This document shows, piece by piece, positions 12,353-52,389 of a DNA stretch of 64,000 nucleotides. Numbering within the stretch: position 1 is the stretch's first letter; every line of letters begins with the position of its first letter. The notes beneath the pieces are model-generated. The model worked only from the letters and a program-made list of their open reading frames with translations. It was not told the origin of the DNA and ran no database searches. Source of the DNA: Trichinella spiralis (taxonomy: Eukaryota); NCBI RefSeq assembly GCF_000181795.1, contig NW_003526941.1, positions 439,453 to 503,452 of the forward strand, in the 5' to 3' direction. The translations under genes were made by a program, and so were the position numbers.

Positions 12353-13078
12353 ATGGCAATTACCAATCAGCCATCGGCAGGCAACTACGCATCTTGTTTG
12401 AATACAGAAACAATGCACTACTTTGCCAAACCGTCAACAGTGTCCACAACACTGGCAGCAACAGAATCGACACCAGTTCGTCCAAAAAGAAAGTACAAAC
12501 CCCGAGCAAGAGCGAAAAGTCCGCAAAGTTTGGCTCTGCAGCGAAGGATACGTCGAACAAAAGCGAATAACCGAGAGCGAAGTCGGATGCATCATTTGAA
12601 TGACGCGTTGGATCGACTTCGCAATGTATTGCCAGTGCTACCTGACGACAGCAAACTGACTAAAATTGAAACGCTCCGCATGGCTCACAATTACATCATG
12701 ACTTTAACTCATGTACTCAACCTGTCCCAACCAGTTGAAGAAGAGGATGAAGATGAAGAAGTTGAACAGCAGCCGGTGGTCAGTGGACAAGCAGTCGCGC
12801 AACAGTACAACTTTTCAACTTCACCCTACCCGATGCAGACGACGGACACCTGCTACAGCTTGCCGTCACAGTTGGACATCGTCCATCCTTCGATGCCAAC
12901 AGCTTTGCCCCACGCTCAACCTCCATCACACAGTATCAACTATTACAACAACTACTACTACAATGGACAACGTCCAGATACGGATCACTTTTACAACGCA
13001 TGGTCAGTTGAACAGTTTCCACCAGCATCCACTACTTCAGTCAGTTCTGCCATGTACAATTGTTCAAGTTATTCCTGA
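12353..13078 (+). CDS. ngn-1: Neurogenin-family bHLH transcription factor, intronless
   Basis: b[52 protein letters not shown]. The first ATG of the open frame is at 12353 (the ORF track starts at a TTG at 12206). Confidence 0.9.
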
Positions 13079-19421: not shown

Positions 19422-19465
<44 letters not shown>

Positions 19466-19708
19466 ACATTTATTTAAAAGTAAACTGCATCTGAAAGTGA
19501 AATAAACTACTTTACCACGACGAGCGCGATCGAGCATCATCTGCGTATAATTATGCCAGTCTTTAGAATAACTCACAGGAGCATTTCTGAGACTCAAAAA
19601 TAGCAATGAGTTCCTGAGATCTAAGTTGAAAACAATATAACAAATGAGCAAAATAACCAAAAAATATACAGTTGCCCATTTCACACATCTATTACATCGG
19701 TATACCAT
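17672..19708 (-). CDS. Polypeptide N-acetylgalactosaminyltransferase (GT27, GALNT10/gly-10-like) with ricin-B lectin domain; 5 exons
   Basis: TM anchor, [25 protein letters not shown] (DxH), [19 protein letters not shown] and C-terminal QxW repeats. Confidence 0.93.
19427..19461. repeat. (TA)n microsatellite in GALNT intron 1
   Basis: Direct inspection. Confidence 0.9.
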
Positions 19709-19918
19709 TGAATTCTAAAAATAAAATGTGCCAAAACTGAAAACAAAAAAAATAAATAAATACTTCTGGTATAAGCACGTGAAATTCCACTCATTGTCAG
19801 TAATAAAAAGTAAAATTAAAATATTTTTACTGTATATGCTACAAAGCCAATAGAAATAAACGAATAAATAAATACATGCGCCGGTAAAAAAGAAGTCATG
19901 CATAAAAATTCACTTCAG

Positions 19919-22900: not shown

Positions 22901-25646
22901 TCACAGCCAACTGATAACGTTTATGAGCTGGCTGACAAAGATCAACAACTCTTCCATACTAAAATTAATAAAATAAAATTACAACTCTATTCTTACTTCG
23001 CATATTTATTTATTGTTGTTCATTGCATTTTTTTCTCAAGAAATAATAAATTAAATTACCACCGTTCCAGTAGAGATGCGTTTCAAATTTTCCACAAGTT
23101 CTTGCTTTTTCACAATTCGTGAATTTTCAGAACTATCAACATTAGCATCATTCAGTTGACGATTTACATCTTCCACTTCGACGATCACTTGTTCTAGACG
23201 CGTTTTCGCCGTCCGCACTTCATCTTCAGTAGAACGTAAACTTGATCGTTGCTCTTCAATTTCATTTTCCGTATTTCTGGAAAAAGAAAAAAAGAAAACA
23301 ATATATGCTCAAAAAATTCAATTCAGCATACTTGATAGTATCGACCAATTTTTCCAAACGCTTTTTCAACGCTTCTAATTCGGATTCTTTTTGCTTAATT
23401 TTTTGACAAAATTCACCATTGCATCTTTTATCGTTGTCCAACAATTCTTGATCCATCTGTTGTTCACGCGCGAGAACATCCAACTCTTGTTGAATAGAAG
23501 CACACTGACGAACCACCTCACCTTTCAAAGAGTTGTACTGAGCAAGCTAAATGGTCACCAAGCAAATGCATAAAAAAATTACACATCACGTCAAAATACA
23601 GAATAAAGTAGAATGGAAATGTTACTTGTTCACTGTCCAGCTGCAGACCTTGACTTTCAGATTCTTGCGTTAGCTGAGCTTCAAAAGCATCTCGTTGTTC
23701 ATTGGCTTCTTTCAATTGTACTTCAAATTGGCGTATAACTTCTTGTTGACGTTCGGCATTTTTCCTAGCAGCTTCGAAAGCTTTGTGAAATGCTTCCAAT
23801 TTTCTCTCCGAATGCCGTACATTTTCCTTCACTTTGATGAAGCTCGGCTTTTCGCGTGTAATTTCAGACTCCTAAACACGCTTTTTCAAACAAACTTCAA
23901 ACATTTTTTCCAATGGGCAATAAAAATTGCACCATTTCGTAAATTTGTTGTTCCAATTTATTGACTTCACGAGTAACTTTGCTGTACACTTTTCGCCTCT
24001 CTTTCAGAACTTCCTCAACTTCACTGCACTTGGTTGCAATTCGACTTTGCTCGCCATGCTTGCCATTCATCTCTCCAAAAATTCTTTTCGATTCTCGATC
24101 ATTGCTGAACAGTTTCATCAAATAATAACGACTCTGCTTTTCCGCCTTCAATTTTCCAAAATAATACTAATATACTAGTCATAATTTCAACAAAATCTTA
24201 CCACAGAATCTTTGAGTTTTTGATATTTTTCCGCTTCTTCTTTTTCCATCTTCGCTGCACGCCTTTTCGCGGCAATATCACGCTTTCTGTGATAATTCAA
24301 CTGAGTATCCTGCTCTGCTCGCATCATTTCTGCTTTCAGTGTTTCATATTCAGCTTTCAATTCCCCAGATCTAAAATATTATAAATTTTCTACTCTGACC
24401 ACTAATGCCATTCAACTGTGTCTGTAATTTATTTCCTCGCTACCGAAAGTAAAATTTCAACTGTACATTGCCTTCAATATGAACTTTTTCAAACATATTT
24501 CATACCTTGATATTTCTTCAAATAACAAAGTACATTCTTTGGGATTCTTCATAGCAATATTTTCTACAGCACCTTGAAATACGAGAAAATTTTTTGCACG
24601 GATAAATATGTTGATGCTTTCTAACGCTTCAGTATATTGCAAATGGCTAACAGTCTACAATTCACCATAACAAATAATTGAATAAAAATGCAACAATTAA
24701 TTAATTCTTACAGCTCCGTCAATACGATATTCTGCGCTGGCACCAGCTACAAGACGCATAAATTTCAAGATACGGCCATCATCATCTTCATAAGTCATCG
24801 CTACGTAACACCTTGTACTGATTGGCTTTCCAACGGGTGCACCATAAATTAAATCCTGGAATGCGAAGCAACCATTATTAAACCTTTCAATTTATCGTGC
24901 TCTGTAATTTATTTAATTTATGTTAACAATATATACAATCAATTTGTAAAATTAATTCTTCAAAATCATCTCAACTATATCACAATACAACAAGAATCCT
25001 GAATTATCAAAAAATAATTACAACAGTCTTCGCATTTAAAAAAATGTAATACTACAATCATAAAAAAGTTTCTAATACAGTTTTATTTTACATTAATTAA
25101 TTGTCTAAAGTTGCATTACACTGAATAACAAATAATTTAATTTACACAGTTTATTTGCTAAGGGAAAAGAGTAAAGTGCAAGTTCACAACCCAGTTTCAA
25201 TTAATACTACATTTCAATTCTTTCCATTCATTGTCTTAGTGTTAAGAAAAATGTAAATCACTCAACATATTAAATAGTTAACTTTAAAGTATTTGAATAA
25301 TTTCGTTTGTCAAATATAATACTAAAAACAGCTGGCACAACAGTTTTATTTATCATTTTTCAATAACATATTCAATCCATTTACTAAAAACTGTGAAGTT
25401 ATATTTCACTTACGCTGATCTTTCTGACACGTAAGCTCGAAGTTTTTTCACCCAGAACAAAGCAAATTGCATCCATAAGATTGGACTTTCCTAAAATGTG
25501 TTCAATAAAACGTGCTGATATGCAAATAATGTCTCACCTGATCCATTTGGGCCGATGATTGCAGTGAATTTTTTGAACGGCCCAATTCTTTGGTAACCTT
25601 TGTAAGATTTAAAGTTTTCAAGTTCTATTTCACGCAAAAAACCCAT
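19919..25646 (-). CDS. SMC1: Cohesin subunit SMC1 (about 22 exons)
   Basis: [17 protein letters not shown]...[16 protein letters not shown] (Walker A), hinge region, LSGGEK signature and [12 protein letters not shown] (Walker B). All introns I traced are GT-AG and in frame. Confidence 0.96.
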
Positions 25647-29173: not shown

Positions 29174-31797
29174 ATGGCTGAACGACAAAAGAAAGAAGAA
29201 CAAAAGGAATTGCCTGATATTATTGTGAATCCAAAACATGGCACTAGATATTGTAAAGGAAAATTTCTGGGAAAGGTGAATGAATGAATGAATAAATTGT
29301 CGCTGCTTCTTTGATAATTTGAATTTTCAGGGTGGTTTCGCTCGCTGCTATGAGCTCACGGAATCGTCCACTAATCGCACTTATGCTGGAAAAGTTGTTT
29401 CGAAAACATTACTTGTCAAAAAACATCAAAAAGATAAAGTAAGAAACTTCTTCAAGATTACCCTTTTCCATAGAAATTTGAATATGGTTTTTCTTTTCAA
29501 GATGGCTCAAGAAATTCAAATTCATTCTCAACTTTCGCACAAGCATGTCGTTCAGTTTCACAGCTTTTTTGAAGACGATCAAAATGTTTACATTTTATTG
29601 GAACTGTGTCGCCGAAGGGTAAATTTGGATTAAAAAAATTGTAGACTCACTCTTATTGTCGTGGTTATTATTATAGTCGCTGATGGAATTGCACAAGCGA
29701 CGCCGAACAATTACAGAACCGGAAGCACGTTACTTCCTTCATCAAATTGTTGACGCAACAATTTATTTGCACGAAAATCGCATCATTCATCGCGATTTGA
29801 AATTGGGAAATTTGTTCATCAATGATGATATGATGGTCAAATTAGGTGACTTTGGTTTGGCTACGAAACTTGATTATGATGGTGAAAGGAAAAAGTACGT
29901 TTATTTCGTGTTTTAATCTTCATTTTGGAAAAATTCGTATCTTTTTCTAGAACCCTCTGCGGCACTCCAAATTACATCGCACCTGAGATGCTTTCCAAGA
30001 AAGGTCACAGCTATGAAGTGGATTTATGGGCAATTGGGTGCATTTTATACACTCTGCTTGTTGGAAATCCACCGTTTGAGACATCGTCACTGAAAGATAC
30101 GTATTCACGTATTCAGCGCAACGATTACCACCTGCCGAGTCGTTTGAGCCCAGCTGCTCGTCAGATGATTCTTCGGTTGTTACAGTCTGATCCGAAAAAT
30201 AGACCAACTATCAAAGAAACCTTGAACTTCGATTTCATGACTTCCGGTATAATTATTTATGATTTTGTTTGAATTAATATGAAATTGACAATGTAGAAAA
30301 TATGAGAAAGATTTTCAAAAAAATATATATACCTGAAAATGTATCTTTGAAGGTTTCTGTCCGCTTCGTCTACCAACATCTTGTCTCACCATGGCTCCAA
30401 AATTTCCTGTCGAAGCTCTTCGTGCACCGTTACAACTTGACCGGAAACCACTAGCAGCATTTAACTCCGGTTAGCTTTTCTTGGGCAAATCCACATTTTC
30501 TTTTTCCGTCAAATATTTAATTTGAAAATAATCTATAGATGCGGCAGGCAAAGGCCAAATCGACGGACCGCCTCGTGCACTAACTTCTGTTCCTGAAGGA
30601 AAAGAGATGCTTGCTGAAAAGCAGCAGCCACGCTTTGAAACATCTATCTGTGGTATTTATAAATTGAATATTTTTCTGTGGTTTTCTTTCTTTTTTTTGA
30701 TTCACCTTCATCATGTAGTTAAACAAGAGATTGCTGTTGACACGCACTTGGGTACGTTGTTTCGACTGTTGACTGAGATTACGCGTAATCCAACTAGAAA
30801 TACACCACCTTGTATGGGTATGTAACATTTATTCACATTGCGCTGTCATATCTACACCAATTTCATTTTAAACTTGATCTTTGAAATAATATTTCTGAAA
30901 ATTTCAGATGAAGCCGAAGATCCTGCGTTAGCTCCTGTATTCTGGATTAGCAAGTGGGTCGATTATTCAGACAAGTACGGTATTGGCTATCAGTTGAGCG
31001 ACAACAGCGTTGGAGTGATGTTCAATGACAAAACAAAGTTGGTTCTGCATGCTGATGAGAGGTTGATGTTTTATTTTAAATTTGAATAGATTTTTGTCTC
31101 AAAAATTTATTTCTATTGTGCAATTTCAGTCAGTTGCAGTTCATTCAGTTCAACGATGAGGAAGTATACTGCACCACCGAAAATTTTCCGGAGTTTTTGA
31201 AAAAGAAAGTAACACTGATGAAGTACTTCAAGAGCTACATGCACGAACATTTGTTGAAGGTAAATAGTAGCGTCTAGGTGCCCAACAAATTCCATACTTT
31301 ATCAGGGAACTCTCTAGGCTGGAGCTCACAAGGCTCCATCGGCAGGGGATGAATTGGCACGTCTTCCGTCACTGCGAGATTGGTTTCGTACTCGTTCTTG
31401 TATTGTTTTTCTGTTGAACAACGGCACAGTACAAGTGAACTTCTTTCATGATCATACCAAGTTGGTTTTGTGCCCACTGATGGAAGCAGTGACTTACATG
31501 GACGAAAAGCGTAATTTTAACACCTATCTAATATCGGCGCTGGTTAAAAGTGGATGCAGTGAGGATTTGTTGTAAGCATTTGAAGGGAAAATGAGAAGAG
31601 AAGGATGTTTAAAAAGTCCAAATTTCAGGTCACGTTTGAAGTATGCCCGCAGCATGGTCGAGCGACTCATATTACACCAGGCGAGTGGCAGTAGCAGAAA
31701 GACGGGCTCGTCAACAGGTCCGCAGAGTGCAGGTTTGAATCCCGCAACAGAACAAGAACAAGATATGCAAGAGGTGGCGAAAACAGGCAAAATTTAA
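29174..31797 (+). CDS. PLK1: Polo-like kinase 1 (12 exons)
   Basis: [37 protein letters not shown]-box-like RKPLAAFN, and polo boxes [13 protein letters not shown] and [11 protein letters not shown]. Confidence 0.96.
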
Positions 31798-34943: not shown

Positions 34944-36692
34944 TCACTTTTGAGTAAGACGAGCCAACAGAGCACAGAAAAATGATGGCTTTATCTAAAA
35001 TGAAAAAAACATAAAACACAAAATTGTGAATAAAAAATTTCCTTATTGATGAATTATGATAAATTGCGCGTTGAATTTTGTTACATTTTTCGAAGAGTAT
35101 CTATGTAAATGATGAATTTGTGAAATTGCTTACAAGAAAAAGACTGGCAAGAATTCCAAGTGTTCCTTCGATGGATGAAATTTGAAAAAGATGTTTTTCA
35201 AAACGACGATAACATCCCTAAAATTGAAATCTTTTCAATGGAAATTATAATGAATGAATGAATGTTGATATGTATAACCTCAGTGTAAATTGCAGTTGTG
35301 TTTACTTTCGAATCAGGATCGAACATTTGACAAGCATTTATATCAACGTACTGACCGTTCAGTTTAACGCAGCATGACGCCGGAACCAATTTTTTCAACT
35401 TTTCAGGCTGATCCATGTGCCATTTTGAAGTTCGCCAGATGATAAAATTCGACTTTTGCGTTTCATCAATTCCACAACAGTGAAACTGCTCTTGCATCTT
35501 GTCCCAAGCGTCAGTCACGGCATCGTCTGCAGGCTGACCATAAAATGTTTTCAGCGATGTAAGCATTTGTAAATCCAATGCATTTACAACAAGCTAAAAT
35601 TTCGGTTCAACTGAAATGAAAAATCGAATAATTTTGATTAGAAGCGAAAAACCTTACTTGTTTTTGAAAAATGAATGCCATTACACCAGCCATCAATAAC
35701 ATCAAAAACAGAACTAAGCAGGTAACGGAAAACTGCAATACAAAAACGATGAAATTTTCGGCCTTCAAACAGACTCAATTCCATACTCACAGCGTACATG
35801 AAACAACGCAATTCACGGCTGGTAACGTAAAATCCAATAACGTTCATGCACATGCTTATCGCTCCGATAAACAGCAGCAGAAAACCCACGTCGACGAAAA
35901 GCTTCGGCTCGAAAAGGGCAGCAAATTGCTTTTTGCATAATAACACCCAGAAACCGCAACCAATAGCAGCAATATTTAAAAGCTAATGCAAAAAATATTT
36001 GCATAATAGATAAAAGTATTCCTTTGAAAAGAAGCATACATTGTTGGAATTTTTTTCAAAGTTGAAAATGAATAAAAAACGTGAATGAAATGGGCAAAAA
36101 GCAAAGAACCGTTAAGTTAACCGTTTCTTCCATACATATCAGTGTGAATATGTACACAATGATTTCAAGTTTTATACGATGAAAACTTCTTCAGTGCTGC
36201 ATTCTGCCCATTACTGAATGTCTTGTTATTTTGAAAAATAATCATTCGTTTGAAAGTGTAAAATTTTTAACACACATTAATGTAAAAAAATATATGCTCT
36301 TGAAAATCAAATAACTGTAGTCATGATAAAGCAATGTATTAATGGAAATTTATCTTCACTTTGTACATTTTAGTTGGAGAAAGCAAAATAATCAACAATA
36401 TAACGAAAAAACATCCAGCAGTGAGCTGTGATCTTTTCTAATAGCATAATTTTGCAAAAAAAGCAACATTATTCGAAGAATCGTGAATTATTAACGCGAG
36501 TACTGTGCATTTTGTTGGTTGGTGTCTAGCACGAGTTCATACGAAGAAATAAATCACAAATTAACGAAATTAACAAAATAAATCAAAAGTAAATCTTACC
36601 ATGGATAATAAATTTGTACAATAGAATGAATATCTTGTGAACTGTCCCAGTTTTCCATAAGCAGTGCAGTTGAATATTTGGTCCAATTTCAT
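34944..36692 (-). CDS. Tetraspanin, CD151/TSPAN11-like (6 exons)
   Basis: Four TMs. The large loop has AVTDAWDKMQEQFHCCG, WRTSKW, VPASCC and IYTEGC, and the protein ends FFCALLARLTQK*. Confidence 0.9.
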
Positions 36693-37663
36693 TGTCGTTC
36701 AACGTCGGATGTTTCGTAGACGTCGTCTTCACGTTACGAAGCTTAAGACTAAGCAACAACAAGTTCTAGAAATAAGTCCACCGTCTGTCTGCAATGTTGT
36801 CCCACTTTTCTGTCCAATTGCTGGTCTGTCGACACTTCCATTTTCACACAGCTTCACATATCATACAGAGTGTATGCAATTCGATCAATTTGTATAGCTG
36901 TGATTCTTTTTTCTAGGTACAAATTATTTGTGTGACCGAATTATTTCATTTCTGACGTAATTAAAAAAGTGTACAAGTGGAAATGCTTGTATTTTTTGTT
37001 AATTCTCTTCCTTTATCTTTCTTACATTTAAATGAAATTGTCGACATGAATTTACCTTCTTGTTTTTGTCGAACTAACTGTTAATCGACTTGCTGACCAC
37101 AACATACTGGCCAAATTTCATTCATTTTGAATCCATTTTCAAAAATATTGCAATCGATAAAATAAATAAGAATAATAACGTTTTTTTCTGTTCTTACTTG
37201 AAAATCAAAAAAACACGCTATACTGTAGGTGAGGAAAAAATATTTTTTGCACCAGACGAGAACGTCAAATAGTAACCAATTTTCACAATGCGTCAATGAA
37301 GCAAAGCAGTAAGCATATGGTGATTTTAATAAAATGTAAAAGACAAAATGTCAATAAAAACGAGACAACAAAAAAAATGGCAGTATCAGTTTCATCTTGG
37401 CAGAGATAGAAGAAACACGGGATTTTCGAACGGGAAGGGAAAGTAGAAATTAAACGCCAGATTAAGATGATCGACAGGTAAAAGGAGCAAAAATTAAAAT
37501 TACAAGGTTGTTCAAAAAATAGTTTAACTATATTTGAATGGAAAGAGGATAAAAGAAAAAAAAACAACAGCGCAAATAATGTTTTTGTCGTATGTTGTTT
37601 CACAGCAACAACCTGGTCCGGTTGGCAAGTGAGTGAAGGGAAGTAGTAATTTTATGAGAAGGT

Positions 37664-37800
37664 TCAATCGCAATGTTCATAAAATTTGGTTCGTTCTTCA
37701 ATATGGGCTGTGCAATGCTCCAGGCGACTGTTCAGCTGTTGCAGCGTTTTGCTAAAAGCAGCTAGTCGCAGCTCGTTGGCGTCGAGCGCCTTGCGCTCTT
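37664..37800 (-). CDS. Laminin beta alternative terminal exon B ([10 protein letters not shown]...TKFYEHCD*)
   Basis: tttttcag acceptor in phase 1, matching the donor at 39132. It encodes 45 aa ending Y-E-H-C-D*, like known beta-chain C-termini. Confidence 0.85.
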
Positions 37801-37939
37801 CTGAAAAAGCAAATTAAGAAAACAACAACAAAGCAAACAAACAAATTAAAAAAAGAATAAGCATCATCAGTGGGGTCGTGGGTTGGTAACTGAGAAAGAG
37901 AGTATGAGTATGAAGAAATGTGTTATCGTTAATCAATCT

Positions 37940-37981
<42 letters not shown>

Positions 37982-40900
37982 GCAGAAGAGAAAAAAGTAG
38001 AAGCAAAAAGAAAAGAAATAGAAACAGAAATATAAAAATGGAACATCTGGTCACTTTTATGCTTATGAGTGTACAGAAAGTAAAAACAGAATAAGTGGTA
38101 AGGTAGGAAAGTGAACAGAAAAAGCACAGCTATATCATCTGTACAGCAAGAAAAAAAAACAAAAAGATGAAATGAAACATATAAATACGCACACGCATAC
38201 ACACGCACAGAACAAGAACGTGTCATAATCTGTTGCTTGCAAATGGCATGCATGGATAAGAGTGGAAATTGCATTTTCACAAAAAAACAGAGTCATTCTT
38301 AATTTTGTTTTGATTGTCGTTGTTATTTTCATCTTGCTTACTTGCACAACAGTATTATTCACTAAAAAATTTCGAAAAACAGAACAAACAGTGTAATAGG
38401 ATTTACAGAATGTGTGTGTGTGTGTGTGTAAATAATAGCTCTACAGTGTTGGTGGTGGTGGTGGTGGTGGTGGTGCAGTGGAATAATTGTGATTAGCATT
38501 CAAAATGTGCCAGTATTGGGAATTTTCAGTGAGCAAGATGGACGTTCCAAATCAACAACAGAATCTTCAGACGACGGACATGAGCAATGGTCGTAAGCTT
38601 TCAAGTAGTACTGAATGGAATCGGTAGCAGCGTCGACCGTGCTCAGCAAGCCGGCTAGTCGGTTTTCCACATCCGACATGGTCACCTCATTGACGCTGAC
38701 AATTTTCCTCAACTCTACAATGAACAATCGAATGTGTTGTGCACTGTTGTGTGTTGTTGTTTTTCTGTGCGGTTGGTCTGTGTGATGAAGCAAACATGCA
38801 AACAAGCAAACAAGCAAATTATATACAACAACGACAGCAAATTGTGAGGCAACTACACAACAACTACAACTACAACTACAAAACTACAACAACTGCAACT
38901 GCAAGACTCTAAGAGAACATACGCATTGTTGTAATAATAATTATTACATTTCAAGTGGAAAAAAATGAACAGAAAAAATAAAACAGTTCTTGATTTGGTA
39001 GATATTAAGTTTTTTGGGGGAAGAAAAAACTGAAATCATGCTGCGCAAAGAAAGAATTGATCAAAAAAAAAACCGAATCGCGCGCGAGCGCGTGGGATTA
39101 CCACCAAACCAATTGGCCCCGCATATTATTACCTTCTATATCGCTGAGATGTTTTTCGGTTTTTTCCAACAATTTCGTGGCAGTTTGTCGAAGTTGTTCA
39201 GCTCGTTGTCGGGCCGCTTCGTTGTCACCGATTTTTTCGTTCAGCAAATTTTCCGCCTCTTTATACTGCTGTTCCAGAGTCTTGCGTTTCACTTCGACCT
39301 GCTCGGTTTTTTGCCTGGCGCTTTCGGATACAACCAACGCCCGTTCGACATCTTTGCCAATTTGCAAATATTCCACTTCGACTTTTTTCAAATCTTCCCT
39401 CAAACTGGCCAACAGCTCCACCGACGCGTTGACAATTTGTTCAGCGGTTTCGGTCGTTTCAGCAATCTATTTATTTATATTGAAAAATTAATTAATTTAT
39501 TAATTAATTGAAAATAATTTCATTCAATTTTACCGCTTTCAAATCTTGGTTGGTTTGATCGAAATTTTCATTCGCCGACAAAATCGCCTGCTTGGCAATG
39601 GTTTGGAAATGTTTCGAATCGTTCAACGCTTTCATCACATCTTGGGCAGTTTTTTCGACAGTTTCGATTCGAACTCTAGAAAAGAGGAAAAAAAAATATA
39701 TATATCAAATCTCTTTTCAATATGGGCATCAATATGGATGTAAATCACACTTCGATTGGTCGGCACGATTTTTCAACAGCTGCGCTTCGGTCGAATGGTG
39801 GCGAGTGTCGTGCAAAATCGCCTGTATGTTGGTCAACTTTTTCAAATTGTCTCCAATCTGGTCGGCCAACGTTTCGATTCGTCGTTTGTCCAGCGAAATG
39901 GTCATATTCAGCACCTGTTCGGCCAGCAGGCGGATCTGGTCGGGCGTGGCCGCGGTCGCCTGGGCGTCGCGGTTCAACAAGCCCGCAGCGCGGTCCAACA
40001 GGGCGCCCAACACAGCCCGGGTGTCGTTGGCGACTTGGGCTACTCGGACGGCGGTCTCGAACGCCTGGCCGGCGTCGATCAGCGCCATATCGCTGTCCGC
40101 TTGCGCGTGGCGCAATTTCAGCGTCAGTTCGTTGGCTTGGCGCTGTTTGTGTTCGAGCTTGTCGGTCGCCTCGCGACTGTACTGCCACGCCCGTTCGGCT
40201 TTGGTCGCGGAACCGTCGCGGCACGACGCCCCGCCGCAACGGGAGCAGCCGGCGCCGCCGCACAGGTCGTCGCACGGTTCGCCGCCGTCGGTTCGGGCGC
40301 CGCAGATTTGGCGGTTCAAATCGGGCAGTCGAGCTTCCAAGTGGACGAGCCGGCGGTCGAGCTCGTCCAAGGCGTTCTGGTTCTGCTTGAACTGGTGGTC
40401 GAAGTCGCGGGCGTTGGCGTCGAGCAGATCCCTGGTCCGTCGACGTTCGGCTTCGGATTCGGCGACCACGCGTTCAGTCGCGTCGGCCAGTTGACGAGCC
40501 CGCAGTGACAGCTGAGCCGCTTCTCTGGTGACGTTGTACGCCCCGCGAGGGTCGCGCTGGCGAAGGTCCGTGACGTTGCGCTCCAAATCCAGCACCGACT
40601 GTTCCAAGTCGGCCGCCTGCTGCTGCAGCGAGCGCAGATGCTCGTGGCCAGTGTCCACGCCGGCCGTCAAGCCGGTCGAACGACTGTCCACTGCGTTCAG
40701 CTGGGCCAGCAGTTGGTCGACGCGTGCTTGCAGACGACCGACCTGCGAGTGGAGTTGGTCGAGCAGGTCGGACGAGATGTTCGCCTGGGACAGTTGGTTT
40801 TCGATCGATCGAAGTTTGGTTTGGATACCGTTGAACTGATCGTCGTAGACAAACGAAACTCCGGTGTCGGCCAGCTGGGTGGCGTTGTGGGCCAGATCGT

Positions 40901-43900
40901 CGGTCTGCCGTCGGAGCTGTTGGAGAATGGAATCCCAATTTTGGAAACACTCGCCGCACGGCTCGCACTGGGGCCAAGTTCCCGTGTGACCGCGGGCACA
41001 CTGGTCGCAGTTGGGACCGCCCGAGCCGGGCAAGCAGACGCACGACCCGTTGGCGCGGTGGCACTGCAACGTTTCGGAGCCGATCGAATTGCACTGGCAA
41101 CGCACGCAGCCGGTGCTCGGGTCGCCCCAGTAGTAGTTTTCGCACTCGCCGCACGTCCGACCACCCCGACCCGGCTTGCACGGGCACTGGCCGTCGAATT
41201 CGTTGCATTGGAGCAACGGCCGCTGGTCGTTGTCCACTTCGACACCCTGTTCGTCGCAGTCGCAACTTTCGCATCCTCGACCGCTGGCAATTTTCCAATG
41301 ACCACTGGCACAAGCGTCGCATTCTCGACCGACCACGTTCGGCAAGCAGGGACACTGGCCGGTGATTCGGTCGCACGGTCCGGCCGTGATGTCAGTACCG
41401 AGGATGTTGCAGACGCACTTGGCGCAAGACTGGGTCTGGGCGTCGCCGAAAAATCCCGCCATGCAGTGCTCGCACTGGTAGCCGTCGGTGTTCGACGTGC
41501 ACTTCAAACAACGTCCGGTCTTTTGGTCGCACGAACCGGGCACGTCGAAATCGATGTTGCCGTTGCAGTCGCAGCGCTCGCAACTGCCGCCCAACTCGTT
41601 CGGATTGCCCCAATAGTTGGTGATGCATCGGTCGCAGCGTTCCCCTTCGTAACCGTGCCGACAATTGCAGACCACGCTTTCGGAAACCGCGTCCAAATAG
41701 CAACTGTCCGCGTGCTGGAACCCACTACCCGGACCGCCGGGACAAGGGCACGGCCGACAGGGGATGCTGACGCCCAGACGTGGGTCGCCGTAATAGCCAA
41801 GCTGACACTGCTCGCAGTGGTGACCGGCGGTCAAGTCGCGACAGTCCACACAGGCGCCGGTTCTCTGGTCGCAGACGTTCGCGTGACCGTTGCACTGGCA
41901 CGGTCTGCAGTCGGGAAAACCCCAATAGCCGGGCTGGCATTGGTCACACTGACGACCGTGCACCGCTTCGCGGCATTTGCACTGGCCGGAGTTGGAGTCG
42001 CAGAAATTGTCCAACGCCCCGATGCTGTTGCAGTCGCACGACCGGCAACCTTGGGGTCCGAAACCGAACGTCCCGGCCGCGCAGACGTCGCAACGGCGCC
42101 CCAGCACGTTCTGCTTGCACTGACACTGGCCGCCCAACTGGTCGCACATACCGCTCACCGAACCCGTGGGATTGCAGTCGCACGCCACGCCCCGGTCCAA
42201 TATCGACGCCGCGACTGGACAAAACTGTCGTCGACACGGTTCGGGCAGTTGATCGACCGGCGTCAACTGCATCGCCAGCCGACGGCAGTTGAAGTGGTCA
42301 AATTCTCGCCTGCGCTCGTCCGACAATGCCGGACCGTCCATGAACATCCCAATTGCCGCCGAACTCGGCATCAGAACCAACGAGTCGATCAGTAGTGCGG
42401 CCGTTCGATCCGGACGGCCCGTCTGCTGGTATTCGCCGAAAGTCACGCGTATGTGGTATTGGACGTTCGGTTCCAAGCATACCGTCTGAACACTGTCGTA
42501 AATACGTTCGCCAGCTTTCAGAGATACTTGTTGCATGAAGTCGTCTTTCGGCAGACTGTTGGCACAAGGTCCAGTTGAATCTGGTGGAGACGGTCGAATC
42601 ACGTCGACACGCACGTTTTGCCAAGTCGACGGCATTGGCGACTCGTAACGCAACACCACGTTGTAGTCCATCGCGACGTGGATGTTGTGGACGGCGAAGT
42701 TGAGCACCGACGATTCGCGTACACGGACGAAACCACTGCCGGTCCACTGCTTCGGTTCGGTAGCGTCCCAGTAGGGTTCGCGCAGTTCCACTTCGGCAGG
42801 GCCTTCGAAAACAGCTTCTTCGGCTTCGTAAGTGAAAAAATCCAAACCGGCGCAATAATAGCCAGATTCGGGTATATCGCAACGACGACCGCTGAAATGG
42901 GCCCTGCATCGACACTGGCCGTTCATCACGTCGCACGAATTATCATAAGCGCCGCCGATGTCGCAGTCGCAAGGCTTGCAGCCGTCCAACTGTTCACTCA
43001 GACCGTAATGTTCCAACAGACAACGATCACAGTTGTCTCCGGTTACCAGACGTTTGCACGTGCACTCGCCGGTTCTCTTGTCGCAGCCTTCGTTGTTCAC
43101 CGTTCCGAGCAGATTGCACGTACAAGCAGTGCAACCTTCCGGATTATCCTGGTCCAAGTTCCAGTAGCCGTTTTTGCAAGCGTCGCAGTGGTCGCCGACC
43201 ACGTGGACTTTGCAATGACAACGACCAGAGATTAGATTTCGCTCCGAATCTGTTTCACTTTCGCAGATGCCCTGATTCAAAGAGCCTCTCAAGTCGCACT
43301 CGCAAGCTCGACAAACATAAGGATCCGACAACGCTCGATCCGGATCTCGATAAAAATACGGTTTGCACATTTCACAATTTTTGCCCATCGTGTTGTGCTG
43401 ACAGTCGTCGCAAACCCCACCGCTCACAAAGCCCGATGCTTCGTACACTGCGTGGTCGAAATGGCATCGATTTGCATGCTCGTTACAATTACATCCTAAA
43501 CATTTGAACATAATGTTGTTGTTGTTGAAAAGAAAAAGTAATAACACTAGCAGTAGTAAGTAAGTAAGTAAGTAATTTACTTTTACAAGCGTTCGTTTCA
43601 CGATCAATTGCCGGCTTCCAAGGAAGATCGTTGTAAAAATCTTCACATTCTTCACAGTTCAAACCTTTCGTGTGATGCGTGCATTCGCATCGACCGTGTA
43701 CCATATCCGGTCTAGTGGAACCAAATAATACGACACCATCGTCGTCGATCGGCTTACAACGACTCGCGTGGCCATAGCAGGAACAAGAACCACGAACAAC
43801 CATCTCATAAACGGCGTAGTAATATTTTTCCGTAATTTCTGGTCTATTGTCGAGCAAATTGTCGCCCAACGTGTGCAATTTTGTGAAATTGATTCTCAAA

Positions 43901-46900
43901 TTTGTCACTCTCAACAAATCTTGAATTTCTTCTGAATACGGATCTTCAAGCGCAATGTGAGGCGAAAGAACTTTGAAAACTACCTGAAATGAAAAGTGAG
44001 TGCAATGCAATTTGAATAAAACAAACAGAACAAACAATTTTGTTTCACCATTACCTCTCCCCCAGTCGACGGTGCAACGAAACTGTACCTCGAATCACAA
44101 ATTACATCCGTGTGACGTCTCGGTATGCCTTCCGGTACACCAGGAAAGGATTCGGCACAATCGTAGGCAAAGTAGCGATAAATTTTCCACGTTTTGCCAA
44201 AATCTGACGAACGTTCGATGATCATCGCCGCCGGACGAAACGACTTGAACGTCATGATCAAGTGGGTGAAATGGAACTCGGCTTCCAGATCCAAGCGTAC
44301 TGTGACATTTTGCAAACCATTTTCAGACTGCCACCATTTTTTCGCGCGCATTTCGAACCGATCACTAACGACATTTTCAATCCGATGACTGCGCTCGTTG
44401 ACATACCTGGCCCAGGGTTGGCGACTGTTGCACGTGAAACACTTCTTCCTATCTTCCAAATGACTGACAATACAATAACGTTCCGGATGCAACAAGCCGC
44501 ATGTCGAACTAGCTGTCAACCGATTTTCACGACCAATGAGCAAATTTCCAGTAGCCGGATAACAGCTACGATCGTTGCATATGTCCACCAAAGAAGAAGA
44601 AGAAGAAGAAGAAGAAGAATCTACGAATGCCAATGCATCATCTGAAATAATAAAAAAAAAACAGAACTTATTCTTCAATTATTCCACAACTCACGATCTA
44701 CTCTGTAACATTTTCATTTTATTCAAATAAGCTTTCCTTTACACACACACACACACACACTTGTCTTAAATCAAATACGCTCTTTCAAAATGCAAACATT
44801 CCCATTACGCGTTAAAGGTTACTTAGTGAATTGAAAAGAAAAAAAATAATATTTATATAAAAGAGGAAAACGTAAAAAATATTGGTGCAACATTTTGCAA
44901 AATTATGCCCAGACAACTACTCAAACTATGATGGTATTCAATATGCAAAAGCAATTGGTGCTGATTCATTATTGACCAAAAGTTTCAAAATGATAAAAAA
45001 TGTATAAAAAAATAAAATCACGTCAATAGTTGCTCGCCGCTTACTTCCGTAGATAAAAATAGACAGAAAAAACCCCTCATCTTTGATAAATCAAACGAGC
45101 CAAAAGTAATACATTTATTTCTAGAAACGGACGTCTGCTACTTCTTGATCATCTATCTATTACACGTAGATGAGGAGAAAGAAACGAATAAAACAATTTC
45201 AAAATGAACAACTAACTACTGCTAACAAACAGAGAAACACTGATTTGTATTTGCATATTGCTCTGTTGATATTAGACAGATGCAAGTGCTAATGAATGAA
45301 GCGCACGACCGACCTTCCCAAAGGTCAGAGAGCTAGCAGTTAGTAGTGACCAGTGGGTCAGTTGGAATCGACCGTTGGCTACAGACCGAAAAATGATGAC
45401 GGTAATGTGAAAACCATCTTCTTCAAACAGAATACTGTTTGTTTGGTAAAGTTCAACGAGAAAAGAAAAGCTGCTAACAAGATGTTTGCCATGGAACTTC
45501 AAAATTGAAGAAAACCTTCTCCCACTGCTGTCGAGCGATGATTTTGAAACCGCCTTGCACAATTGAACACAATTAGCATTGGCTGACCAGCGTTGCGTGA
45601 AAAGAAATAGCTTCCTTGACCCAACGGAAAGCTGACAGAGAAGCCGAACAAAAAACAATTCGCAATCATTATCACCAAAGCGTAAAGCCCATAATTAGCA
45701 GGCAGCCCAAAGAGAAGAAAAGTACAATTGCAGAATGCCAATGCCATCTTGTTCCAGTAACATGAAAAACAATAAATCACTCGTTGCAAATACAGTCCAA
45801 TTAAGCCGCCGATGAAGCTCATGATTTGTGATTGCCATCACGATACAATTAAACACGTTGACAAGATGGGATAATTCCAATAATTTTCTACAAACCTACA
45901 CACTTATAAATCAACTGCTAATGGAAAACGATGATCATCAAAAAATGGTCACACAGCTGAATAAATGGAAGTAAAATGAGAAAAGAAAAATACCTAGAGT
46001 CGATCAAATAACACATCTATCCATTCGATTCGAAACTTATGCTGGTATGATGCTATTAAACTACAAGAAAGTGAACATTGCTTTTGGTTCAAAATGATGA
46101 ATCGGTTGCTATTTTTAAAAATGAATCAATATTTTTTCCATAAAACTAACATTGATTTAACGTCGAAAATTTGTTTCATATCTGCTTCGAAATCTAGCAC
46201 AACTGTCATGAGAGAAATTGAAAATTTAATAAAACAATCGCATTCTTTGATTTTTAGTGATTATTTTTAAACAGTTCAAAGAAGCTGAACTTTTGTCGTA
46301 TTGATCGATGATTCAGACGTGTACATTTTTTTCTGGACGATATTAAACTTTTCTTTTCATTACAATTACTGTTATAATTGGATGGAACCGTCACAATTTG
46401 AGCAACGCATCAACCGACCTGTTTGGTTGATTCATGTCGACTACTACTACCTACTACTTACTACGCATACATCTCGTCGGTTTGTCCAGTCATCGTCGAT
46501 GTTGCCTCTGCTGAAAGTAGTTTCAATCTAATCGTATTAAAAATCTCAATTTCAAAACTGCTACTTCACCCAAGGGCTAAAAACTGCATTCAGCTATCTC
46601 AACTTTGCAACTTGGTACAAAAAAAAGTATATATAATTTTTTAACCGAATTGAAATGTAAGCAAAAAAAGCAGTAGAGAGAGAAAAAGAAATAATTCATC
46701 CAGATTTTTGCAACACTTCACACTTCACATTTGATTTTTCAAATTCTAGACAAAAAACCAACAACGTAAGTTAACAAATATGCCATAGCTCTATAGTATA
46801 ATAGCACTCACACACACACACACACACACACGTACTGCACCAATTGCATATTATATACATTATATTATATTATATAGTGAAAACTCGTCATGCTTTTTAC

Positions 46901-48306
46901 ATTCAGAGCAATCACTGCGTGCGGGCAGAGAAGTCACTTTCCACATTCCATTCGATAACAACGCTGTCCAGTTGAAAGGCATAATAAAAATAGCGCACCT
47001 TTCTCCCTACCCCCAAAACAAACACAAACAGACAACGCAAATATTCACTCTGCTCTTATCTAAAGCAAACTGCGAAACCAAATTGAAAAGAGGTTGAAAA
47101 TAATACAAATTTAAAAAAAAATTTAAATTCAATCTCCAAACTTTCCCTTTTCTCCTTCTTTTGATAAACGCTCACAATAAAACCCACATCCGGCGGGAAT
47201 TATTTCACAATTTTCAACAATCAAACAAACAAAAACTTCAACATCAATGCTTAACTGTGTCAGCTTTACATGCGAAAAATAATATCCTGTCGAAAATTTG
47301 AAAAATATTTAAAGAAAAAACACCTCTCAACGTACATGCCCCATTTCCAACTAGAGTCAATGATACATGCAAGTGATTTTTCAAATACAAGTGAACAGAT
47401 AATTTCTCATCGAATCAATACAAATGCTTCTCAAAATTAAGCTTTAATTATTACATTCACCTATAGATTGAAGCATGGTTCAAGGCCATAAAACAAACTA
47501 TTAAGTGGTTGATGCATAAATTTCCATCTTCTCACCACATCCAACTTACATGCATGTTCAACTGCAACGTCAAAATTAGTCATTGCTTTAAATTTTGAAA
47601 CTAAACTCAGGGATATATATTTATTTATTTAAATTTCATGCCGTTTGAAGGTGACATTCAACATTTGCATCCGAAATGTTAAACGTGAAAGGAACAAACG
47701 AGAAGAAAAAACTATACTATACGATACCACAATTTCATTTAAAATTATTAATTGGAGAAGAAAAAAAACCCACAACACTGCATAAATAAATAAATAAATA
47801 TATATATAAATCATACATTTCGATAAGGTCGACCGACCTTCTTTATAAGAAACAAATCAATCAGTTCAACCAGCATTTGATTAATGAAACACGATCACAA
47901 ACTTATCTAAACAGCAGATAAGTGAACACTTTACAACACTTGTTCATTAATTTATATTTAGTACAATCAATTTGTAGTTCAGATTTGATATATAAAAGCT
48001 AACATATCAGTGATTTTGATCAACCTAACAAAAAGTCAATCTTTCATGTTTCATGCCCAAATGATCAGGTTTAAATTCAATAGAGAAAAATTAGTAAAAA
48101 TGATCAATAAATAAAAAGTAAAACATTAACAACTACAACAAAATAATTCAACTAATCAAACTGTACAATTAATGAATTCTTTAGTAAATATTTTTAGAAA
48201 AAAAATTTACTTTACCGACTAGCAAGAGTAAAAAGCCGATGAAAACTGTAACGATGGTGCTACCAGGCAGACGATGCTGTCCATCATGCAAGCGTTTCTC
48301 TTTCAT
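37664..48306 (-). CDS. lam-1: Laminin beta chain; exons 48306-48216, 44641-~44055, ~43984-~43580, 43495-39751, ~39676-~39533, ~39466-39133, then alternative last exon 38714-38500 or 37800-37664
   Basis: Signal peptide, LN domain ([36 protein letters not shown]), LE repeats, domain IV, and a coiled coil with the beta-knob (ICGA...[18 protein letters not shown]). Confidence 0.96.
37942..37977. repeat. (TA)n microsatellite
   Basis: Direct inspection. Confidence 0.9.
38449..38475. repeat. (GGT)n microsatellite just downstream of the laminin exon A stop
   Basis: Direct inspection. Confidence 0.9.
38500..38714 (-). CDS. Laminin beta alternative terminal exon A ([10 protein letters not shown]...LKAYDHC + 27 aa)
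   Basis: attgtag acceptor in phase 1, GC-rich coding-like sequence, and gap-free alignment with exon B. Confidence 0.8.
44740..44760. repeat. (CA)n microsatellite in laminin intron 1 (another at about 46808-46831)
   Basis: Direct inspection. Confidence 0.85.
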
Positions 48307-50472: not shown

Positions 50473-52389
50473 TCATCGACTAGACAATGGTTTCCATTTA
50501 TATGTTCCAGTAAATAGAAAGCCGTTTTGACGCATCAGTTCATCCGCTTCCGCTGGACCGCGACTACCGAATTTGTATAGCACAGGCTTCCGACGATTTT
50601 TTTCAATATCATGAAGACACGGTGTAAAAATTCTCCAAGCTTGTTCTAATTCGTCGGATCGAACAAAATTGATCTGCGAACCGCAAAATACTTCCAAAAG
50701 TAGCCTTTCATATGCATCTGGCAAGTGAATATCCTGAAAAATTTTACAGTATACCAAAAATAGAATAAAAGTACACTAACCTTGTAACGTTCGTGATAAG
50801 TAAGATCGAGTTCAGTTTCAGTAATGTCGAAACCCATTCCTGGTTGTTTGGTGATCAATTTTGCATACACTGCTTCGTTCGGTTGTACTCGAATGACTAA
50901 TTCATTGCGTTTCACTTGTCCAGCCGGAAAAATGTCACATGGCACGTCGCGGTATTGGATGCGCACTTCAGCTTTTCGTTCATTCAATGCTTTGCCGCAA
51001 CGAAGAAAAAAAGGTACACCGTCCCAACGTTCGTTATTGATCCTGCAAACAGCCAATGCGTATGTTGGCGTGACCGAATCTTTGGCAACTTTTGGATCGT
51101 CCACATAACTGATGCGCTGTTCTTCAATGCCGCTGTCTGAATTACCAACGTACTGGCCAAGCACCATCTCATCGGCAGAAATTGGTGCAATGCATTTCAG
51201 CACACGAACCTTCTCGTCTCTTATGTCCTCAGCTTGCAAGGAGATCGGCTTTTCCATTGCCACAAGGCACAGCATCTGCAGTACGTGATTCTGCATCACA
51301 TCTCTGTGTTGGTGAAACAGTAATCACAAGTGTATATTGAGTTAGTTAAATTCGAAATCATCGCTGTTTACCGAACAATTCCGTATTCATCAAAATAGCC
51401 ACCACGTCCATAAGTACCAATCGGCTCTTTGAACGAAATGGTCACCGATGAGATATGCTCTCGGTTCCAAGAAGGAGCAAAAATGCGATTGGCAAATCGT
51501 AAAACCATCAAATTTTGTACCATCTCTTTTCCAAGATAATGATCAATTCGATACAGTTGGTCTTCGTTGAATAATCCGGACAAATGTTTAGCTAGTTCAT
51601 ATGATGACTGCGTATCTTTACCAAATGGTTTTTCAAGAATTACTCTCGTCCAAGCATTACTGAAAGAAAATATTTAACGTTTTCAATCCAATTTCAAATT
51701 TGACGGACGAACAATTTCACAGAGCATGGTCTTTTCTTTACATATCCAATAACAAAATTTTCCTTACGCGCTTTTGCACGTGCAAATTTTTTGAATATTT
51801 GTCGTCACGGTACAATAAACGCTGGGCGGTAATGCCAGATAAAATATACGGTTTGGACAAGCACCAAGTCGACTGCCGACAGTTTCAATTTCAACTTTTA
51901 GCCGAATAAAGCCATCTTCTTTGTCATAGCTACCGCAAATGTAAGAATTCCGTTTTATAAAACTTTCAAACAGGTCCTCTTCGTCCTTTTGAACCTGAAA
52001 ATACATATTATTACTGCCATACAGTTTATGGTCGTAATAAGCAAAAAATTGACATGGCAAAATGGAAGAAAGTTTTCTTTCAACTGTTCAACAGTTAATG
52101 CTGTACGTGCGTAGCCGATAAAATACGTGCCAGGCGGCAGAAGACGATCTCGGAAAAGCCACCAAAGCGTTGGATACGTTTTCCTTTTTGCTAAATCACC
52201 CTTAAAATAATAATCTTTCAATTAAAAGATAAAAAAGATCCATCCAAAGATTCCTTTTACCGACGCGCCAAAGATAACAAATACGTGTGGAATTAATTCT
52301 TCTTCATTTGGTAATGTCTCTTTTATAACACGAATCGTTTCTGGAGTTAATTGACAACAAAAAGGTTCAGACATCTGACGTTTATACAT
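50473..52389 (-). CDS. G6PD: Glucose-6-phosphate 1-dehydrogenase (6 exons)
   Basis: [41 protein letters not shown] and PDAYERL. Confidence 0.97.

What the first reader, a model, noticed from the sequence alone, without database searches (positions are those of the whole stretch)
37664..39133. Laminin beta has two duplicated, apparently mutually exclusive terminal exons
Seen: one phase-1 donor (39132) is followed by two phase-1 acceptors (38715 and 37801). Exon A encodes [44 protein letters not shown] plus 27 aa. Exon B encodes [45 protein letters not shown]. They align without gaps, with 12 of 44 identities (E1, R3, K4, N9, E10, L20, L23, I34, K39, Y41, H43, C44), and each has its own stop. 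Known: this end of the coiled coil nucleates alpha/beta/gamma assembly, carries the beta-gamma disulfide Cys and modulates integrin binding. Invertebrates usually have one beta gene, whereas vertebrates diversify by gene duplication. Inference: an old exon duplication yields two beta isoforms from one gene, possibly specific to stage, tissue or alpha partner. I am not aware of this being described.
Basis: partly seen in the sequence, partly recalled or inferred. Interest (0 to 1): 0.88.

Follow-up and report, generated by a model that had tools for sequence, protein, structure and literature searches.

The report
One laminin gene, two ancient tails
Trichinella worms splice their laminin beta gene to either of two anciently duplicated last coding exons, both also found in whipworms and a third related worm, which likely gives them two versions of the cell-gripping end of this basement-membrane protein.

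Summary
Confirmed. The window is Trichinella DNA. Donor 39132 is followed by acceptors 38715 (exon A) and 37801 (exon B); the exons share 14 of 44 residues, not 12. Of 8 runs laid, 6 show the join to A, 6 the join to B, 5 both, and 0 an A-to-B join. Both exons occur in Trichuris and Soboliphyme records, so the duplication is at least about 200-280 million years old. B is the ordinary laminin beta end. A is the derived copy: it keeps the heptad core and terminal Cys and adds a tail with two more Cys. One refinement: contigs suggest that A transcripts run on through B to a shared 3' end, so the choice is probably between competing acceptors, not separate poly(A) sites. The tandem A+B model in 10 of 23 database records has no RNA support here. 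Function, stage and tissue are untested. Duplicated last exons are a known kind; ten literature searches found no such case for a laminin chain.

The parts
48215..48306 (-). Likely first coding (signal-peptide) exon of the laminin beta gene; boundaries approximate
   Evidence: tblastn of P0005 residues 1-30 at 48306-48217, 100%; database models disagree on the 5' exon
39751..44641 (-). Shared gene body: LN, LE and LF domains and most of the coiled coil, including one 3.7-kb exon (about 43494-39751)
   Evidence: tblastn of Trichinella records; ORF list; 99% to P0003 over residues 880-1248 of the long exon
39534..39675 (-). Shared coiled-coil exon
   Evidence: both flanking introns are spliced in 8 of 8 runs laid
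39133..39466 (-). Shared penultimate exon: 111 codons plus 1 base
39131..39132 (-). Single phase-1 donor (GT) used for both forms
   Evidence: joints 39133>38714 and 39133>37800
38715..39132 (-). 418-nt intron of the A form; it ends in a non-consensus acceptor without TTTTCAG, preceded by a CA-rich stretch
   Evidence: joint in 6 of 8 runs
38583..38714 (-). Exon A core: derived copy of the last 44 coiled-coil residues, ending at the conserved Cys
   Evidence: 43-44 of 44 identical in 13 Trichinella records, 29 of 44 in Trichuris suis
38500..38582 (-). Exon A extension: 27 residues with two further Cys, then the stop
   Evidence: both Cys kept in Trichuris; the first kept in Soboliphyme
38542..38543 (-). 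Weak in-frame GT inside exon A, which database models use to join A to B
   Evidence: the joint is listed in 0 of 8 runs
37801..38499 (-). 3' UTR of the A form and intron of the B form; it ends in a consensus TTTTCAG acceptor (37807-37801)
   Evidence: covered by contigs in X1, X10 and X11, and partly by stranded reads in X19
37664..37800 (-). Exon B coding part: canonical laminin beta end (44 residues to the Cys, then Asp and the stop)
   Evidence: joint in 6 of 8 runs, including a 5676-nt contig in X8
37310..37663 (-). Common 3' UTR; cover ends near 37310-37320 in X1, X8, X10 and X19, just behind an ATTAAA at 37330
   Evidence: X4 and X11 run further downstream

Best explanation
The Trichinella laminin beta gene ends in two duplicated coding exons, A and B, each spliced to the same upstream donor, which likely yields two beta chains that differ only at the receptor-facing end of the coiled coil. 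SHOWN: one donor, two acceptors, both junctions in RNA-derived data, both exons conserved in Trichinella, Trichuris and Soboliphyme, B canonical and A derived. INFERRED (about 0.7): the choice is made between a weak proximal acceptor (A) and a consensus distal acceptor (B). A transcripts run on through B as 3' UTR to a shared end near 37310-37320; the stop in A makes the two forms exclusive at the protein level. INFERRED (about 0.7): the A chain still assembles with gamma and alpha and forms the beta-gamma disulfide, because its heptad core and terminal Cys are intact. INFERRED (about 0.5): swapping the last 44 residues and adding a Cys-bearing tail beside the gamma tail changes receptor (integrin) affinity or alpha-chain preference, as the beta1/beta2 difference does in mammals, and the switch is regulated by stage or tissue.
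For: Junctions: A in X19 (2 raw stranded reads, 71 letters on the short side), X1, X9, X4, X7 and X11; B in X19 (2 reads), X8 (5676-nt contig), X9, X4, X7 and X11. That is 4 studies for A and 3 for B. Records: of 23 Trichinellida records read, 4 end in A alone and 7 in B alone, and Trichuris suis has one of each. A Soboliphyme baturini model holds an A-type and a B-type unit. Tree: the A copies of three genera form one group (100/98); a duplication within Trichinella is rejected (p-AU 0.001). Constraint: X10, a diverged Trichinella, has 0 changes in 352 coding bases of A+B against 25 in 1251 flanking non-coding bases (Fisher p 0.002; A alone 0.018, B alone 0.07). X11's listed changes are one Asp-to-Glu in A and one silent change in B. 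Shared end: one contig runs from above A to 37318 in X10; X1 has the A joint, no listed B joint and cover to 37310; there is no AATAAA in the A UTR. Heptad positions a are all hydrophobic in A. The exchanged segment holds the beta-gamma disulfide next to the gamma tail. The last 20 residues of beta1/beta2 set integrin selectivity (Taniguchi 2009, as cited in PMC4749547; the original was not held).
Against: Only 1 of the 8 runs (X19) is on record as RNA, and it gave 2 reads per junction from about 18% of the run. The other 7 are assembled contigs guessed to be RNA (X7 is flagged 'probably DNA'), though all 7 show the two upstream introns spliced out. Most junction contigs have only 28-29 letters on the short side. 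X10 lists neither junction. The shared 3' end is not shown by any single molecule: X19 depth falls to near zero at 37856-38069 beside a skipped TA repeat, X4 and X9 have no cover at 37974-38396, and a CATAAA lies at 38061. There is no protein-level evidence for either tail. A departs from the outgroup consensus at positions 24, 26, 37 and 40 and scores weakly against the outgroup HMM. 10 of 23 records and the Soboliphyme model join A to B instead.
Confidence: 0.7

Rival explanations
1. True alternative last exons: A transcripts are cleaved at their own poly(A) site upstream of B, so polyadenylation rather than acceptor competition makes the choice. The two proteins would be the same as in the best explanation.
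For: CATAAA at 38061. X19 depth is 1.7-5.5 over 38070-38390 and 0.07-0.23 over 37856-38069. X4 and X9 lack cover at 37974-38396. This is the usual reading of duplicated 3' exons (PMC3228551 passages).
Against: Contigs in X10 and X11 cross from the A UTR towards or into B, and X1 covers B to 37310 with no B joint listed. The X19 dip lies beside a repeat that the tool skipped; a dip there is no finding.
Confidence: 0.25
2. A is an internal cassette: it is spliced from the GT at 38543 on to B, so that a chain carries both units in tandem, as many database models say, at least as a minor third form.
For: 10 of 23 Trichinellida records, and the Soboliphyme model, have A joined to B in frame. The GT is phase-compatible.
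Against: The joint is listed in 0 of 8 runs, and exon A contigs are unbroken across 38544 in X1, X4, X7, X9, X10 and X11. The donor context is far from the nematode consensus given in PMC4165533. The reading frame beyond it, with its last Cys, is conserved in Trichuris. The join lies 13 residues past the Cys in Trichinella but 11 in Soboliphyme. Contigs drop rare variants, so a minor form is not excluded.
Confidence: 0.1
3. A encodes a chain that is made but does not close the heterotrimer end normally (a non-adhesive or regulatory beta chain), so the switch turns laminin-receptor binding down rather than retuning it.
For: A has a long stem branch (1.7-2.25 changes per site). It lacks the aromatic residue at position 40 and the basic residue at 37, which most of 106 outgroup tails have. 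It extends 22-27 residues past the Cys, where the gamma tail packs against the beta C-terminus in the mouse structure.
Against: The heptad core, Asn9, Tyr41 and Cys44 are fixed in all three A copies. Vertebrate beta1 also lacks an aromatic residue at position 40. Other invertebrate beta chains carry short extensions past the Cys.
Confidence: 0.2
4. A is a decayed duplicate, and its junction is splicing noise.
For: Weak HMM score against outgroup tails (E 0.045); non-consensus acceptor.
Against: A is 29 of 44 identical between Trichinella and Trichuris (B: 25-27 of 44). It is 44 of 44 identical between T. spiralis and non-encapsulated species records, where the preceding 300 residues are about 90% identical. 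Its junction is in 6 of 8 runs.
Confidence: 0.02

Closest known systems
Tandem duplicated exon substitution at the C-terminus (e.g. tropomyosin TPM1/Tm1/lev-11, CAPZB); PMC9741552, PMC3228551
   Same: Homologous duplicated last coding exons swap one C-terminal region for another. 77 of 236 human events are C-terminal, and they are enriched in coiled coils.
   Different: No laminin gene is named in the main text of PMC9741552 or in its one held supplement file of 15,271 characters, which may not be the full event table. Here the two forms probably share one 3' end, and one copy has gained a Cys-bearing extension.
Mammalian laminin beta1/beta2 paralogues and the second Lepidopteran beta gene BmLanB1-w (PMC4515764)
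   Same: Two beta chains for one alpha/gamma set. The last 20 residues of beta1/beta2 set integrin selectivity (secondary citation); BmLanB1-w is tissue-specific (abstract).
   Different: Those are whole-gene duplicates. Here only the last exon was duplicated, so about 1,750 residues are shared and only the receptor-facing end changes.
Known laminin splice variants (alpha3A/alpha3B, LaNt alpha31); PMC11260871
   Same: One laminin gene gives more than one chain by alternative transcripts.
   Different: The variants in the passages read alter or isolate the N-terminal short arm. None swaps homologous coiled-coil ends of a beta chain.
C. elegans let-2 (collagen IV alpha2) exons 9/10 and egl-15 exons 5B/5A; PMC4165533
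   Same: A nematode basement-membrane gene with a developmentally regulated choice between homologous exons; in egl-15 the upstream exon is repressed through its upstream intron.
   Different: Those are internal exons with their own donors. lam-1 is not named in that survey, and the C. elegans lam-1 record ends in one B-like tail.

Membership tests
Laminin beta chain (LAMB1/LanB1/lam-1 family) | LN, LE repeats, LF domain and a C-terminal coiled coil in one chain | tested here: met
   99% to a record named laminin subunit beta-1, which carries precomputed PF00055, PF00053, PF21199 and PF24973; exon map by tblastn
Laminin beta chain (LAMB1/LanB1/lam-1 family) | Heptad repeat running to a terminal Cys for the beta-gamma disulfide | tested here: met
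   a/d positions and Cys44 are present in both A and B; the tails were anchored on this Cys
Laminin beta chain (LAMB1/LanB1/lam-1 family) | Assembly into an alpha-beta-gamma heterotrimer | not testable with these tools
Tandem duplicated exon substitution (C-terminal) | Two neighbouring exons that are homologous, in the same phase | tested here: met
   14 of 44 identical without gaps, both phase 1, profile scores above 10,000 shuffles
Tandem duplicated exon substitution (C-terminal) | Each exon is spliced to the same upstream exon in transcripts | tested here: met
   Each junction in 6 of 8 runs, both in 5 of 8
Tandem duplicated exon substitution (C-terminal) | The two regions are not translated together | tested here: met
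   A has its own stop; the A-to-B joint is listed in 0 of 8 runs. A rare tandem form is not excluded
Tandem duplicated exon substitution (C-terminal) | Both protein isoforms are made | not testable with these tools
   No proteomics search is available
Alternative last exons with separate poly(A) sites | Each terminal exon has its own 3' end | tested here: inconclusive
   Contigs in X1, X10 and X11 point to a shared end; X19, X4 and X9 have gaps near 37.9-38.4 kb
Classical internal mutually exclusive exons (MXE) | Cluster flanked by constitutive exons on both sides, each exon with its own donor | tested here: not met
   Both exons carry the stop, and no used donor follows either coding part; criterion from PMC3228551

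The most novel reading that the evidence does not exclude
Dorylaimian (clade I) nematodes have a second laminin class made by splicing alone. [quoted passage not shown] It would be a laminin beta chain whose long-arm end is re-specified by a splice switch, something that mammals do by gene duplication.
Probability: 0.2. Interest if true: 0.8.

Novelty: new variant of a known kind. Interest (0 to 1): 0.55.

Why it matters
Reviews state that invertebrates have only two laminins, differing in the alpha chain (PMC6744579; PMC12381658). A conserved second beta end would double that repertoire in Trichinella, whipworms and Soboliphyme, if they have two alpha chains as C. elegans does (not checked). 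The exchanged piece is the part of beta that holds the beta-gamma disulfide and that tunes integrin binding in mammals. It is therefore a natural one-variable experiment on what the beta C-terminus does: two chains identical over about 1,750 residues and different over the last 45-71. It also flags a likely annotation error, the tandem A+B model in 10 of 23 records. The mechanism itself, a duplicated last exon, is common, both tails already stand separately in automated annotations, and no function is shown. This keeps the score moderate.

Tried and rejected
No whole genome is held for this window, so a second beta gene elsewhere in the genome and the alpha and gamma genes were not checked. 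The run search listed no holder on record as RNA; 8 of the 24 listed runs were laid. Life stage and tissue of the runs are unknown, so 'A only in X1, B only in X8' is a hint, not a switch; contig depths were not used to rank isoforms. Two scans of metagenome contigs found no relative, and a broader alignment was too divergent to scan. Exon B as a query for longer proteins returned only two Trichinella clusters. The ESM Atlas gave no usable hit for exon A. PDB sequence searches with the penultimate exon and with exon B gave only unrelated coiled coils. Single-sequence AlphaFold models of a Trichuris A-form fragment (mean pLDDT 52.9) and a Trichinella B-form fragment (40.9) are too weak to use: both ends are helical to near the Cys, and the A model has a break at the start of the exon and a disordered extension. 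No complex was predicted, for lack of alpha and gamma chains. An RBFOX-type TGCATG at 38800-38795 upstream of acceptor A is not significant (294 of 1000 dinucleotide shuffles of the intron contain it). The third hit type of the A-profile search, P0233, is a repetitive protein matched by a short motif and was dropped as chance. dN/dS against Trichuris was not computed, because no DNA was available. The tree does not resolve where A branches among nematode tails: A+B had 80/76 support and was unresolved. An origin older than clade I, with loss elsewhere, is therefore neither shown nor excluded. No mermithid, enoplean or free-living dorylaimid record was recovered. Three look-ups of earlier scan findings returned nothing.

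Full report
Observation. On the minus strand the penultimate exon of a laminin beta gene runs 39466-39133 and ends one base into a codon, followed by GT. Two acceptors follow, ending at 38715 and 37801. Exon A encodes 71 residues counting the split codon and stops at 38502-38500; exon B encodes 45 and stops at 37666-37664. An HMM built from 106 distinct non-Trichinellida beta tails (cut from 157 records, anchored on the terminal Cys) ranks B first (E 2.7e-12) and A second (E 0.045) among 1523 six-frame segments of the window. In an ungapped profile score 0 of 10,000 shuffles reach either. B is the ordinary laminin beta end and A a diverged copy.

Organism. Part of the long exon is 99% identical to a Trichinella murrelli laminin beta-1 record and 59% to Trichuris suis. 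The serine run near the N-terminus and Asp at A position 28 match the T. spiralis records, so T. spiralis is likely. No whole genome was held.

RNA. 8 of 24 listed runs were laid. Only X19 is on record as RNA; its first mates all lie on the + strand, which fits a minus-strand transcript. The other 7 are assembled contigs, all with the two upstream introns spliced out. The join to A is listed in 6 of 8 (X19 with 2 reads, X1, X9, X4, X7, X11; 4 studies). The join to B is listed in 6 of 8 (X19 with 2 reads, X8, X9, X4, X7, X11; 3 studies). Both are in 5 of 8 and neither in X10. X8 holds a 5676-nt contig spliced to B with no cover of A; X1 lists only the A join. Most junction contigs have 28-29 letters on the short side, so the strongest single records are the X19 read (71 letters, A) and the X8 contig (B). 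X11 differs from the window in non-coding DNA and carries the Asp-to-Glu variant seen in the T. murrelli, T. nativa, T. britovi and T9 records, so both joins occur in a second species. An A-to-B join is listed in 0 of 8 runs, and exon A contigs are unbroken across 38544 in six runs. Contigs drop rare forms, so this shows that the tandem form is not common, not that it is absent.

How the choice is probably made. Cover does not stop after the A stop codon. In X10 one contig runs from 38881 to 37318. In X11 a contig covers the A UTR at 38045-38401, and cover continues over 37833-37973. In X1, which lists no B join, contigs cover 38716 to 37310 and meet at a TA repeat. Cover ends near 37310-37320 in X1, X8, X10 and X19, just behind an ATTAAA at 37330, and the A UTR has no AATAAA. 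This suggests one 3' end and two competing acceptors: A is non-consensus, B is a perfect TTTTCAG, the nematode consensus given in PMC4165533. Against this, X19 depth falls beside the skipped repeat, X4 and X9 lack cover at 37974-38396, a CATAAA lies at 38061, and X4 and X11 run past 37310. No single molecule spans the region. I put acceptor competition at about 0.7 and a separate A poly(A) site at about 0.25.

Conservation. Of 23 Trichinellida records read (6 members of the main cluster were not listed), 4 end in A alone, 7 in B alone, 10 in A joined to B, and 2 lack the end. Trichuris suis has one record with A and one with B. A-to-A identity between the genera is 29 of 44, B-to-B 25-27, and A-to-B 9-15. 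The A core is 43-44 of 44 identical in 13 Trichinella records, including non-encapsulated species whose preceding 300 residues are about 90% identical to T. spiralis. In X10 there are 0 changes in 352 coding bases of A+B against 25 in 1251 non-coding bases (p 0.002). A profile of the two A copies against 1.84 billion representatives gave 4 hits: Trichuris A, T. pseudospiralis A, a 93-residue Soboliphyme baturini model and one chance match. The Soboliphyme model holds an A-type unit (14 of 37 to Trichinella A, with the following Cys-x-Cys motif) and a B-type unit (28 of 44 to B). The A copies of the three genera form one group (100/98). Grouping Trichinella A with Trichinella B is rejected (p-AU 0.001), and grouping the two Soboliphyme units is weakly rejected (0.034). 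These trees have only 44 columns, and their outgroup rows were picked by hand from the 106 tails (28 and 20 rows). Trichinella and Trichuris split about 281 million years ago (384-204; PMC4740406) or 202 (PMC13334664). That Soboliphyme lies outside this split is recalled taxonomy. Among 185 records of 1500 residues or more, only 12, all Trichinellida, have the A motif or two terminal units. These are annotated proteins, so this is weak evidence of absence elsewhere.

What was duplicated. In mouse Lamb1 a stop at residue 1730 lies 36 bases before the final exon junction (PMC4749547), which puts the junction near codon 1742. In a 1786-residue mammalian record (P0136) residue 1742 is position 1 of the 44-residue unit. 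The last exon thus seems to be an ancient unit, and it is this unit that was copied (inference).

What the swap may do. The last 50 or so residues are enough for a stable trimer; the beta helix runs to the beta-gamma disulfide, and the integrin-binding gamma tail packs against the beta C-terminus (PMC5343747). [quoted passage not shown] Beta1 Tyr1747 interrupts the alpha5 helix (PMC6744579); by my alignment this is position 6, which is Leu or Phe in B and Val in A. A keeps hydrophobic a positions, Asn9, Tyr41 and Cys44. It fixes Val16, Leu24, Val27 and Ala30 in all three genera, loses the basic residue at 37 and the aromatic one at 40, and adds 22-27 residues with two more Cys. A long stem with short tips fits a burst of change followed by constraint. 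I therefore favour two assembling beta chains with different receptor-facing ends. None of this functional step is tested, and the AlphaFold models were too weak to add to it.

Comparison with what is known. Duplicated C-terminal exons are a common kind: 77 of 236 human events, and tropomyosins in three phyla (PMC9741552). Second beta chains arise by gene duplication in mammals and Lepidoptera, and the laminin splice variants in the review passages read affect the N-terminal arm. Ten full-text searches of the open library listed no paper on alternative laminin beta ends in nematodes. 'Laminin' does not occur in the main text of the two Trichinella genome papers, the C. elegans MXE survey or the tandem-exon surveys. 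I saw passages found by term search in PMC5343747, PMC6744579, PMC4749547, PMC3228551, PMC8241838 (nothing useful), PMC9741552 (plus section 17 and one supplement file), PMC4740406, PMC13334664, PMC4165533, PMC12381658, PMC11260871 and PMC9013439, and the abstract and opening text of PMC4515764. Other supplements and subscription journals were not seen and could mention the isoforms.

Verdict. A real, ancient and expressed alternative C-terminus of laminin beta in Trichinella and relatives: a new variant of a known kind, apparently undescribed, function inferred. Interest 0.55.

Noticed in passing
window 43494-39751 (-): One 3,744-nt exon holds most of the laminin beta chain, where the genus mean is about 200 nt. 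It is 60% GC, and GC at third codon positions rises from 0.58 to 0.78 along it, against about 0.5 in the gene's other exons and about 36% GC in the window. Unexplained.
   Followed up: partly
window 48306-44641 (-): Database models disagree on the first exon of the gene: 48306-48217 (signal-peptide-like), about 45760-45480, about 44969-44898 and others. These may be alternative 5' ends or prediction errors.
   Followed up: no
window 36600-37310 (-): A downstream minus-strand gene (tetraspanin-like by eye, ORFs at 35198-35982) seems to begin within about 600 nt of the laminin 3' end. In X4 one contig links 37802 to 36600 with a GT-AG gap at 36912-37056, and X11 cover extends to 37026; two AATGAA lie at 37126 and 37122. 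It may be a longer UTR, read-through or an operon-like pair.
   Followed up: no
window 38715-39132 (-): The intron before exon A is covered by contigs in X1, X4, X10 and X11 (retained or slowly spliced). It holds TTGTAG repeats at 38889-38869 that resemble the A acceptor, TGCTT repeats and a TGCATG at 38800 that alone is not significant.
   Followed up: partly
P0049/P0056 and P0045/P0062/P0063: Thelazia callipaeda and Strongyloides each have more than one divergent laminin beta record, which suggests whole-gene duplicates in other parasitic nematodes.
   Followed up: no
P0072, P0076, P0078, P0079, P0081, P0094, P0100, P0104, P0114: Decapod and stomatopod laminin beta records have isoforms of 2,000-2,380 residues beside ones of about 1,820 with the same C-terminus, which points to large internal alternative inserts.
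   Followed up: no
window 5687-59500: Neighbouring ORFs look by eye (no family scan run) like a fucosyltransferase (5687-6883), a neurogenin-type bHLH (12185-13078), a GalNAc-transferase (17672-19714), SMC1 (20194-23871), a Polo kinase (29292-30272), G6PD (50473-52087) and an MFS anion transporter (56810-59500).
   Followed up: no
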